DNA from: Candidatus Marinacidobacterales bacterium
GTDB lineage: Bacteria; Acidobacteriota; Vicinamibacteria; Marinacidobacterales; SMYC01
Direction of reading: 5' to 3'
NCBI GenBank assembly: GCA_965237955.1
Contig: OZ250169.1
Location: 5,088,001 to 5,152,000, forward strand
Length of the DNA: 64,000 nucleotides
The translations under genes and the position numbers were made by a program. The notes beneath the pieces are model-generated. The model made no database searches. It saw nothing but the letters and a program-made list of their open reading frames with translations, and was not told where the DNA came from. This document shows positions 52,635 to 52,884 of this stretch, piece by piece. Within the stretch, counting starts at the first letter, position 1, and every line of letters starts with the position of its first letter.

Positions 52635-52884
52635 TCGCTCACCTCAAGTGTATTTTGTGAGCGAAGGCTCCGGCCCGAGATGGCGATCGAATGGATTCTG
52701 ACCGTGGGGAGTGCTTTCGTTGGAAGCCTCGCCAATGATAGGGAGCCGGCTCGGACCCAAGCTGACCCTGGGGCATCATGCACCAATGACAGTACGGGGC
52801 TCGCTGCCGGAGCCTTCACCGACAACCTTTCTACCAGCTTTGGTAGTTTCCTACTTGATAGGCCCGGCCTCCGGCCGGGGGCGT
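52635..52884 (-). ncRNA. Putative bridge RNA of the IS110 element
   Basis: 12-bp closing stem (52663-52674 / 52806-52817), extra hairpins, a target-matching 9-mer at 52759-52767 and a donor-matching 7-mer at 52698-52704. Confidence 0.65.

What the first reader, a model, noticed from the sequence alone, without database searches (positions are those of the whole stretch)
52635..52884. Candidate bridge RNA with visible guide segments and an RBS-occluding stem
Seen: a 250-nt non-coding end upstream of the recombinase. A perfect 12-bp stem (GAAGGCTCCGGC/GCCGGAGCCTTC) encloses ~130 nt. Within it, in 5'-3' order, lie GGTCAGCTT (identical to the target across the core) and CGGTCAG (identical to the donor left arm). 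Other hairpins are CCGGCC/GGCCGG, CTACCA/TGGTAG and TGGCGA/TCGCCA. TTCGCTCAC/GTGAGCGAA covers the RBS and overlaps the closing stem. Known: IS110 bridge RNAs carry target- and donor-binding loops. Inference: a programmable recombinase whose single enclosing-stem layout differs from IS621, perhaps coupling RNA folding to recombinase translation. Right-hand guides were not identified with confidence.
Basis: partly seen in the sequence, partly recalled or inferred. Interest (0 to 1): 0.8.

Follow-up and report, generated by a model that had tools for sequence, protein, structure and literature searches.

The report
Bridge RNA with fold-back donor site
This jumping gene carries a predicted guide RNA whose short guides match its landing sites and its own ends, as in known relatives, but one guide matches a spot about 30 bases inside the element behind a DNA hairpin, so the element likely travels as a single DNA strand folded back on itself, which no experiment has tested yet.

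Summary
This is a real IS110 bridge-RNA locus (minus strand, about 52663-52817) in the left end of a 1.65-kb element with 7 copies in this genome. They are not left guides. They are the 5-nt right guide, AG core and handshake bases of each loop, read on the strand opposite to IS621's. The CTT 'across the core' occurs in only 1 of 7 copies.

The missing donor guide is at 52736-52743. It matches no canonical arm, but matches a site at 52856-52862 inside the left end, on the same strand as its partner (z 10.1). That site lies behind a position-conserved hairpin and inside a GTTTC/GAAAC inverted repeat. Folding one strand would rebuild a bubble of IS621 dimensions, so the donor is likely single-stranded (0.6, untested).

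The closest characterised element, ISPpu9, has the same end layout and an RBS-burying leader. There, mutating the hairpin did not abolish minicircles. RNA expression is not shown. Earlier scan notes reached the same reading on other genomes.

The parts
51239..52888 (-). IS110-family element from AG core to AG core (about 1.65 kb); 7 copies in the genome, one of them split by another IS
   Evidence: the empty allele is seen as a joint 51236-52885 in one contig of DNA run X8
52889..52900 (-). Target-derived left flank: the 5-nt arm read by the target guide (52889-52893) and a 7-mer resembling the element's inverted repeat (52894-52900)
   Evidence: 5 of 5 independent targets match TAGTTTC at 5 or more of 7 positions, versus 39 of 3700 GGTCAG sites genome-wide
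52887..52888 (-). Left AG core (CT on the other strand); crossover point
   Evidence: Placed by homologues whose two guides differ and by empty alleles of a sister family in this genome
52880..52886 (-). 7-nt arm of the left end; its first base matches the target-loop handshake base
   Evidence: identity 0.90 versus 0.44 swapped at position 1; 0.34 versus 0.25 at position 2; n=29
52863..52879 (-). Left-end hairpin (7 bp, 3-nt loop), predicted to fold in the DNA strand
   Evidence: anchored stem of 4 bp or more in 37 of 46 elements; shuffles mean 4.4, maximum 12
52856..52862 (-). Displaced donor site (CCTATCA), identical to the 5' guide of the donor loop
52843..52850 (-). Left arm of the subterminal inverted repeat (GAAACTAC), 5 nt beyond the displaced site
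   Evidence: gap of 5 nt in 32 of 46 elements and 4-6 nt in 43 of 46
52663..52817 (-). Predicted bridge RNA core: enclosing stem (52806-52817 with 52663-52674) closing a junction that carries a target arm and a donor arm
   Evidence: transcription not shown (uninformative)
52787..52795 (-). 5' strand of the target loop (left-target-guide position); weak canonical pairing, mainly the 2 nt next to the core
   Evidence: best offset is the canonical one, z 4.0-4.4; 0.61 and 0.63 pairable versus 0.41 and 0.42 swapped
52760..52768 (-). Target guide: 5 nt plus AG core (52762-52768), then 2 handshake nt (52760-52761)
   Evidence: (z 14.5, 40 distinct guides)
52736..52743 (-). 5' guide of the donor loop (left-donor-guide position, ending in CA as in IS621); reads the displaced site
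   Evidence: (z 10.1, 26 distinct guides)
52696..52704 (-). Donor guide: 5 nt plus AG core (52698-52704), then the handshake position (52696-52697)
   Evidence: z 10.6, 22 distinct guides; no covariation of this handshake position with targets
52634..52665 (-). RBS hairpin (52657-52665 with 52634-52642), competing with the enclosing stem; Shine-Dalgarno-like GAGGTG at 52640-52645
   Evidence: 0.2 kcal/mol from the minimum-energy fold; compensatory change in near relatives read from alignment A1
51250..52634 (-). IS110 recombinase gene; this copy carries a 2-nt insertion near 51864-51875 (codon about 257); intact copies encode 460 aa with D29, E77, D114, D117 and S349 conserved
   Evidence: the frameshifted allele is in 5 of 7 copies and appears without gaps in contigs of three public runs
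51239..51253 (-). Right end: inverted-repeat arm GTAGTTTC (51246-51253, containing the stop codon), 5-nt donor arm and AG core
50324..52919 (-). Host LamG-domain gene with a signal-peptide-like start, interrupted by the element near codon 11
   Evidence: removing the element with one core kept gives an open 315-aa frame from the ATG at 52919

Best explanation
This is the predicted bridge RNA of an IS110 recombinase, whose target loop matches a 5-nt arm plus the AG core of the landing site and whose donor loop likely grips both of its sites on one DNA strand that folds back on itself.

Shown in sequence: the guides match the two junctions and an internal left-end site, all as identity to the gene strand, so the RNA would pair with the opposite strand. 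The internal site lies 28-37 nt from the core, behind a hairpin that starts 6-8 nt after the core, and 5 nt from an inverted repeat whose partner lies 5 nt before the core at the right end.

Inferred: when the ends are joined, that strand folds into outer stem, bubble and inner hairpin. The bubble has 7+2+5 nt on the cut side and about 5+2+5 nt opposite, close to IS621's opened 14-bp donor. One strand would be copied out as a single-stranded circle and joined into the matching strand of a duplex target at the CT/AG core, with replication completing the insertion. The target is likely ordinary duplex DNA, chosen by 7 guide bases, weak pairing across the core and a preference for an inverted-repeat-like 7-mer that is probably read by the protein. 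The enclosing stem likely competes with an RBS hairpin and dampens translation.
For: Guide covariation (one representative per distinct guide, 69 of 71 distinct ends after dropping 2 whose RNA region was replaced): target guide versus left end z 14.5 (n 40), donor 3' guide versus right end z 10.6 (n 22), donor 5' guide versus left end z 10.1 (n 26). All reverse-complement orientations gave z of 2.1 or less.

Among the 33 closest of 46 anchored elements, guide positions 3-7 match the displaced site perfectly in 30 and with G:T-type wobble only in 3, across 13 distinct 5-mers. Swapped pairs fit in 7 of 156 cases. Sister taxa on the protein tree change guide and site together. The canonical left-donor arm does not match (identity 0.05-0.36 at positions 1-6).

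Wobble direction points to a sense-strand RNA: 9 versus 1 for the target guide, and 11 versus 5 for the displaced guide. The anchored hairpin is present in 37 of 46 elements versus a shuffle maximum of 12. The joined ends fold as predicted on either strand, at -14 to -15 kcal/mol. Guide format matches the IS621 template.

ISPpu9's published A and B boxes show the same layout. Single-strand copy-out and top-strand integration, including integration of an ssDNA donor, are reported for other IS110s.
Against: No experiment and no RNA evidence: RNA-library contigs covered essentially only the 3' half of the gene. In ISPpu9, point mutations in the A-box inverted repeat still gave normal minicircles by end-point PCR, so the inner hairpin is not strictly required for excision there.

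The displaced match is poor in the 13 more distant or mis-anchored elements: 1 perfect, 5 wobble-only, 7 other. Judged as free folding energy, the hairpin beats shuffles at p of 0.05 or less in only 17 of 46. G:T pairs do not say which strand folds (inverted repeat 6 versus 5; inner stem 1 versus 1). Orientation relative to replication shows no consistent bias (7 of 8 one way, 10 of 17 the other).

CazIS110-1 preferred dsDNA about 20-fold at one junction, and the IS621 structures are interpreted as two-strand exchange. Relatives are not independent, so the z-scores overstate certainty.
Confidence: 0.6

Rival explanations
1. The displaced pairing is real but happens on double-stranded DNA. The guide would hold the left end in a separate step (excision, or a cruciform extruded in a supercoiled circle), and the element would move as a dsDNA circle.
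For: It explains all covariation. The fold is symmetric, so both strands can form it. IS621 guides bind across two junctions during excision. ISPpu9 forms PCR-detectable minicircles and tolerates mutation of the inner repeat.
Against: Relative to the core, the displaced site is read with the wrong polarity for a linear duplex arm, and a 16-22 bp duplex cannot make the U-turn (inference from the IS621 pairing scheme). The 7-nt and 5-nt spacings reproduce a complete donor bubble.
Confidence: 0.25
2. The element is an ordinary bridge system running on half-matches, and the left-end match has a non-catalytic cause, such as a shared protein-binding or promoter motif or pairing with an antisense RNA.
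For: Half-match recombination is reported for IS621 (abstract). ISPpu9 makes an antisense RNA over this region. Many relatives share ATC.TTCA, so swapped identity is already 0.4-0.8 at the outer positions.
Against: The central positions are 0.73-0.90 identical versus 0.22-0.32 swapped, change together in sister taxa, and tolerate mainly G:T-type wobble. The matching segment sits at the left-donor-guide position and ends in CA, as in IS621. A protein motif would not track 13 different 5-mers.
Confidence: 0.1
3. One reading: the two visible guides are left guides that cross the core, with right guides still to be found in canonical positions.
For: In this copy GGTCAGCTT equals the rebuilt target across the core.
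Against: The bases after the core differ in the other 6 of 7 copies. The base after AG tracks the donor end. No reverse-complement guide signal is found. Both guides lie on the 3' strand of their loops, the right-guide position in IS621.
Confidence: 0.05

Closest known systems
ISPpu9 / MITEPpu9 of Pseudomonas putida KT2440 (IS110 group; PMC12288879, PMC8450116)
   Same: AG core at both ends. The A box reads AG, 7 nt, hairpin, about 9 nt, 5 nt, CAAACA; the B box reads TGTTTG, 5 nt, AG (supplement). This is the same end layout as here. ISPpu9 also has a long structured leader that buries the RBS. Locus L216, about 45% identical to this recombinase, shares 19 nt with the A box.
   Different: Different guides and targets (REP sequences there; GGTCAG-type sites here). 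In the parts I read, the authors note the inner palindrome but assign no guides and describe the group as lacking terminal inverted repeats. I did not obtain the ISPpu9 protein or RNA, so the clade link is indirect. No antisense or Ssr9-like RNA was tested here.
IS621 and ISCro4/IS622 bridge recombinases (PMC11208160, PMC11208158; PDB 8wt6, 9t56)
   Same: DEDD RuvC-like domain plus Tnp domain with serine. Left-end RNA with the target loop before the donor loop. 5' guides are followed by UGG; 3' guides are 5 nt + AG + 2 handshake nt. The core reads CT on the cut strand.
   Different: Protein of 460 aa versus 328-341 aa and only weakly similar (E 5e-10). Sites are inverted relative to the gene. 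An enclosing stem closes both arms. The left target guide is weak. The left donor guide reads a displaced same-strand site instead of the opposite strand beside the core.
IS1111-group elements and seekRNAs (PMC11187229)
   Same: Subterminal inverted repeats and RNA-guided targeting.
   Different: Those have 11-13 bp repeats lying 7 and 3 bp from the ends, and usually a downstream non-coding region. Here the repeat is 5-9 bp, lies 5 and about 36 nt from the core, and the RNA is upstream.
CazIS110-1 and IS621 copy-out reports (10.1101/2025.10.25.684509; 10.64898/2026.08.31.748434)
   Same: Single-strand excision and top-strand integration, which the model here uses.
   Different: In the sections read, their guides pair canonically at the junctions and no folded donor is described.

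Membership tests
IS110-family recombinase | DEDD_Tnp_IS110 and Transposase_20 domains with DEDD and catalytic serine | tested here: met
   PF01548 and PF02371 above cut-off; NF033542 at 257 bits versus 140; D29, E77, D114, D117, S349 conserved in at least 90% of 95 sequences
IS110-family recombinase | Insertion at a short core without target duplication | tested here: met
   Empty alleles of the sister family; empty allele joint in run X8; open host frame with one core kept
IS110-group bridge RNA (IS621 type) | Structured RNA in the long left end with two internal loops | tested here: met
IS110-group bridge RNA (IS621 type) | Right target and right donor guides covary with their sites | tested here: met
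   (z 14.5 and 10.6)
IS110-group bridge RNA (IS621 type) | Left target guide pairs with the opposite strand across the core | tested here: inconclusive
   Best signal is at the canonical offset (z 4.0-4.4) but only about 2 nt are enriched
IS110-group bridge RNA (IS621 type) | Left donor guide pairs with the opposite strand next to the core | tested here: not met
   Identity 0.05-0.36 at positions 1-6; it matches a displaced same-strand site instead
IS110-group bridge RNA (IS621 type) | Handshake guides 3' of the core guides | tested here: inconclusive
   Target-loop position 1 matches the donor (0.90 versus 0.44); donor-loop positions do not match targets (0.18 and 0.32)
IS110-group bridge RNA (IS621 type) | RNA is expressed and binds the recombinase | not testable with these tools
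   RNA-library contigs are uninformative; no sigma-70-like promoter in 52500-53100; no Rfam match
ISPpu9-like elements | AG core, A box with inner palindrome, short B box | tested here: met
ISPpu9-like elements | Protein identity to ISPpu9 (over 87% in the paper's set) and REP targeting | not tested
   ISPpu9 protein not fetched; a look-alike locus is about 45% identical, so close membership is unlikely
IS1111 group | Downstream non-coding region and 11-13 bp subterminal repeats close to both ends | tested here: not met
   RNA is upstream, the right end is about 14 nt, and the left repeat arm is 36 nt inside

The most novel reading that the evidence does not exclude
A large IS110 clade (about 450-aa recombinases, including ISPpu9-like elements) has an obligate single-stranded donor. 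One strand folds into a pre-opened 14-nt bubble that both donor guides read in cis, giving RNA-guided single-strand 'peel-and-paste' insertion into duplex DNA. This could be reprogrammed to insert ssDNA cargo with only about 60 nt of end sequence.
Probability: 0.45. Interest if true: 0.85.

Novelty: new variant of a known kind. Interest (0 to 1): 0.62.

Why it matters
Whether IS110 elements move by two-strand exchange or by single-strand copy-out is disputed. A clade whose donor guides make geometric sense only on one folded strand offers a direct genetic test, using compensatory mutations. A tractable probable member, ISPpu9, already has assays. The model would also explain ISPpu9's unexplained A-box palindrome.

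For engineering, guide designs copied from IS621 would fail on this clade, and a bridge recombinase that accepts ssDNA cargo would be a different tool. The clade is large: 7498 of 8000 scored proteins hit at E of 1e-80 or better.

Tried and rejected
Rfam: no match at E up to 1. Plus-strand RNA: weaker fold (z -1.9), and wobble direction favours the sense strand.

A crossover to the left of the guide-matched 7-mer was rejected by empty alleles. The target-loop 5' strand as a same-strand displaced guide gave z 0.6 and -0.2 in window tests. A same-strand signal at offset -14 (z 3.9) resembles the TACTTTC motif of two targets here, but it is second to the canonical offset among about 186 offsets scanned, so I left it unexplained.

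GAAACTA as an RNA guide for the upstream target motif is disfavoured, because targets vary T to C and keep the last C (read). A sequencing artefact for the frameshift was rejected. Replication-strand bias was inconsistent, on an irregular skew curve. Which strand folds could not be told from G:T pairs.

RBS occlusion is not a clade-wide trait: median unpaired probability 0.56, below 0.5 in 16 of 39. RNA runs X1-X4 had low-depth contigs on the 3' half of the gene and only a 39-nt piece of a relative over the RNA, which is no evidence either way. A right-end/left-end loose end in run X7 is not evidence of a circle, because tandem copies exist.

The promoter and terminator scan found nothing. The atlas search of residues 170-300 returned only unnamed clusters. 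The structure model was not delivered, so what the extra protein segment does is open. A sample of 401 Pseudomonadales genomes had 6 with a match, and ISPpu9 itself was not identified among them.

Full report
Setting. The finding is the non-coding left end of an IS110-family element on the minus strand. The gene carries PF01548 and PF02371 in two frames. The genome holds six full-length copies and one split by another IS. Five of the seven share a 2-nt insertion near codon 257 and two encode an intact 460-aa protein. The frameshifted allele appears without gaps in contigs of three public runs, so it is real, and such copies were likely moved in trans (inference). The genome also holds a 78%-identical sibling and a sister family at about 51% protein identity with 17 right ends. 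This copy interrupts a LamG-domain gene near codon 11; with one core kept, the frame is open for 315 aa, and one contig of an independent run shows the empty allele.

Observation. Alone they are weak: a 12-bp inverted repeat arose in 135 of 2000 shuffles and the folding z-score is -2.5. I fetched 37 genome loci and the best 80 of 113 metagenome loci, plus loci from whole-genome searches. On 39 of the 43 listed close ends (alignment A1; five near-duplicates left out, the window added), a six-helix structure pairs in 88.6% of cells, with two-sided change in 17 of 39 pairs and 0 of 500 shuffles as high. Slid controls reach 32-57%. RNAalifold independently recovers the enclosing stem and both arms but pairs one short donor-arm helix differently. 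The helix at the base of the target arm is the weakest (70%), partly because rows differ in register.

Core and visible guides. In this element both junctions end in GGTCAG, so the crossover cannot be placed from it alone. In the sister family the two junctions differ, and empty alleles in the same genome show that the left-junction 7-mer belongs to the target and that the crossover is at AG. The sibling element changes three bases of its left junction together with its first guide. Across 69 of 71 distinct ends (two dropped because their RNA region was replaced by unrelated DNA), each guide was scored against its own and all other elements' ends. The first guide matches its own left end (z 14.5, 40 distinct guides) and the second its own right end (z 10.6, 22 guides), both as identity to the gene strand; reverse-complement tests gave z of 2.1 or less. 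The IS621 design template in the supplement of PMC11208160 has 3' guides of 5 nt, two core bases and two handshake bases, and a left donor guide ending in CA before UGG. The visible guides here have that 3' format, so they are right guides, with the site read on the opposite strand and a CT core there. Mismatches of the target guide are sense-strand wobbles 9 times and antisense wobbles once, so the RNA is the gene-sense strand.

The displaced donor guide. The 5' strand of the donor loop does not match the canonical arm (0.05-0.36 at positions 1-6). It matches a site inside the left end, on the same strand as its partner guide (z 10.1, 26 guides). Of 46 non-redundant elements with both anchors, the 33 closest match at positions 3-7 perfectly (30) or with wobble only (3), over 13 different 5-mers; swapped pairs fit in 7 of 156. 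The other 13 match worse: 1 perfect, 5 wobble-only, 7 other, two of them through mis-anchoring. On a 33-protein tree, sister rows change guide and site together. The site ends 28-37 nt after the core. A stem of 4 bp or more, anchored 6-8 nt after the core and ending at the site, is present in 37 of 46 elements (shuffles mean 4.4, maximum 12), with variable sequence and loop length. A GAAAC-type arm follows the site after 5 nt in 32 of 46, and its inverse precedes the right-end core by 5 nt; the outer positions covary (position 2: 17 of 24 Watson-Crick versus 0.28 swapped). More distant relatives at about 40% identity show the same order of parts by eye, with shorter or weaker hairpins.

Mechanism. 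With the ends joined, either strand folds into outer stem, bubble and inner hairpin. On the strand the guides read, the bubble offers 7+2+5 nt on one side and about 5+2+5 on the other, close to IS621's opened donor, in which left and right guides pair with antiparallel strands. Two sites on one strand can be antiparallel only if the strand turns back, so I infer a folded single strand or a cruciform. Single-strand excision has been reported for IS621 and CazIS110-1, where top-strand ssDNA also integrated. The simplest cycle is copy-out of one strand, folding, exchange of that strand with a duplex target, and completion by replication. None of these steps is shown here.

Target side. The target-loop 5' strand gives its best signal at the canonical left-guide offset (z 4.0-4.4 among about 186 offsets, 71 sites, 33 guides), but only two positions are enriched. 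In this genome, 5 of 5 independent targets also resemble the inverted-repeat arm upstream of the guide-matched bases, against 39 of 3700 GGTCAG sites; two more copies sit in the right ends of related elements. What reads this motif is unresolved, and the protein is my guess.

Against. In ISPpu9, mutating the inner repeat left minicircle formation detectable, whereas mutating the bases just after the left AG or next to the right AG did not. Free-energy tests of the hairpin are significant in only 17 of 46. No strand bias in G:T pairs or in replication orientation was found. Expression is not shown. Kin are not independent.

Translation coupling. The RBS hairpin is within 0.2 kcal/mol of the best fold and overlaps the enclosing stem. 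It shows a compensatory change in near relatives but is not a clade-wide trait. An RBS-burying leader is established for ISPpu9, where weakening it raised a reporter 26-fold.

Known or new. The element works like, and is filed under, IS110-group bridge systems, but it fails the canonical left-donor-guide test. The closest characterised element is ISPpu9, whose published end boxes have the same layout; the link through protein is indirect. Eight library searches listed no title or abstract describing a displaced same-strand donor guide or a folded donor, and the parts I read describe none.

What I saw of each paper. PMC11208160: abstract, sections 12 and 43, passages, and part 1 of supplement 7; files 1-6 and the figures with six diverse bridge RNAs were not seen and could include this clade. 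PMC11208158: passages. PMC12288879: parts 1, 6 and 7 of 9, passages, supplement part 2 and a supplement search. PMC8450116, PMC11187229, PMC3971601, 10.1101/2025.05.14.653916: passages. PMC13626964: abstract, discussion, passages. 10.64898/2026.08.31.748434: abstract, section 6. 10.1101/2025.10.25.684509: abstract, sections 5 and 7. 10.64898/2026.10.21.760802: passages and section 8. 10.64898/2026.03.19.712850 and 10.64898/2026.08.14.744561: abstracts. Preprint supplements and subscription-only papers could not be seen. Seven earlier AI notes from this scan report the same fold-back reading on other genomes. I saw them after recording my own, and they are not independent evidence.

Verdict. 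The bridge RNA is real by comparative evidence (about 0.93). The displaced pairing is very likely real (about 0.85). The folded single-strand donor is the best explanation (0.6). New variant of a known kind; interest 0.62.

Noticed in passing
L062, L063, L064, L142, L159, L166 and G000:C1:4904911 (left junctions): One subgroup inserts at the edge of 14-bp palindromes made of its own target guide and its reverse complement (7 of 71 sites). Two target loops may bind one site symmetrically.
   Followed up: partly
G000:C1:541031, 2886901, 3883680 and others (sister family, 17 right ends): A second IS110 family of this clade often inserts into the conserved end of another repeated element, for which empty alleles exist. 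That the repeat is an IS256-type end is recalled, not tested.
   Followed up: partly
L147, L214, L215, L217, L219, L222: A subgroup with an AA core and an A-run target guide inserts at A-rich stretches at the ends of transposase-like reading frames, probably IS3-type frameshift sites (label recalled).
   Followed up: no
L069, L072, L097, L100: A subgroup targets a sequence that looks like a tRNA T-loop and 3' end, and its left end begins with bases resembling the displaced tRNA end.
   Followed up: no
G000:C1:4904911-4912826 and 5050943-5055698: Two nested loci in which this element inserted at the right end of a related copy, itself split by another IS. The split copy has a 97%-identical 3' part that looks recombined with the sibling.
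   Followed up: no
L170, L176, L183, L186, L191: Short left-end-like units (hairpin, site and GAAAC arm) lie next to full elements without a gene, possibly MITE-like passengers as for MITEPpu9.
   Followed up: no
intact recombinase, about residues 175-300 (L005:1762-3141): A segment of roughly 100-120 aa beyond IS621's length lies between the two Pfam domains, with only unnamed atlas neighbours. It is a candidate reader of the GTTTC motif.
   Followed up: partly
window 52836-52858, minus strand: GTAG-GAAA-CTAC could form a GNRA-capped hairpin as an alternative to CTACCA/TGGTAG. It overlaps the left inverted-repeat arm and is not obviously conserved.
   Followed up: no
G000:C1:4337272-6928625 (10 hits at about 25% identity): A third, distant IS110 family is present, including a tandem run of four copies at 5882722-5888972.
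   Followed up: no
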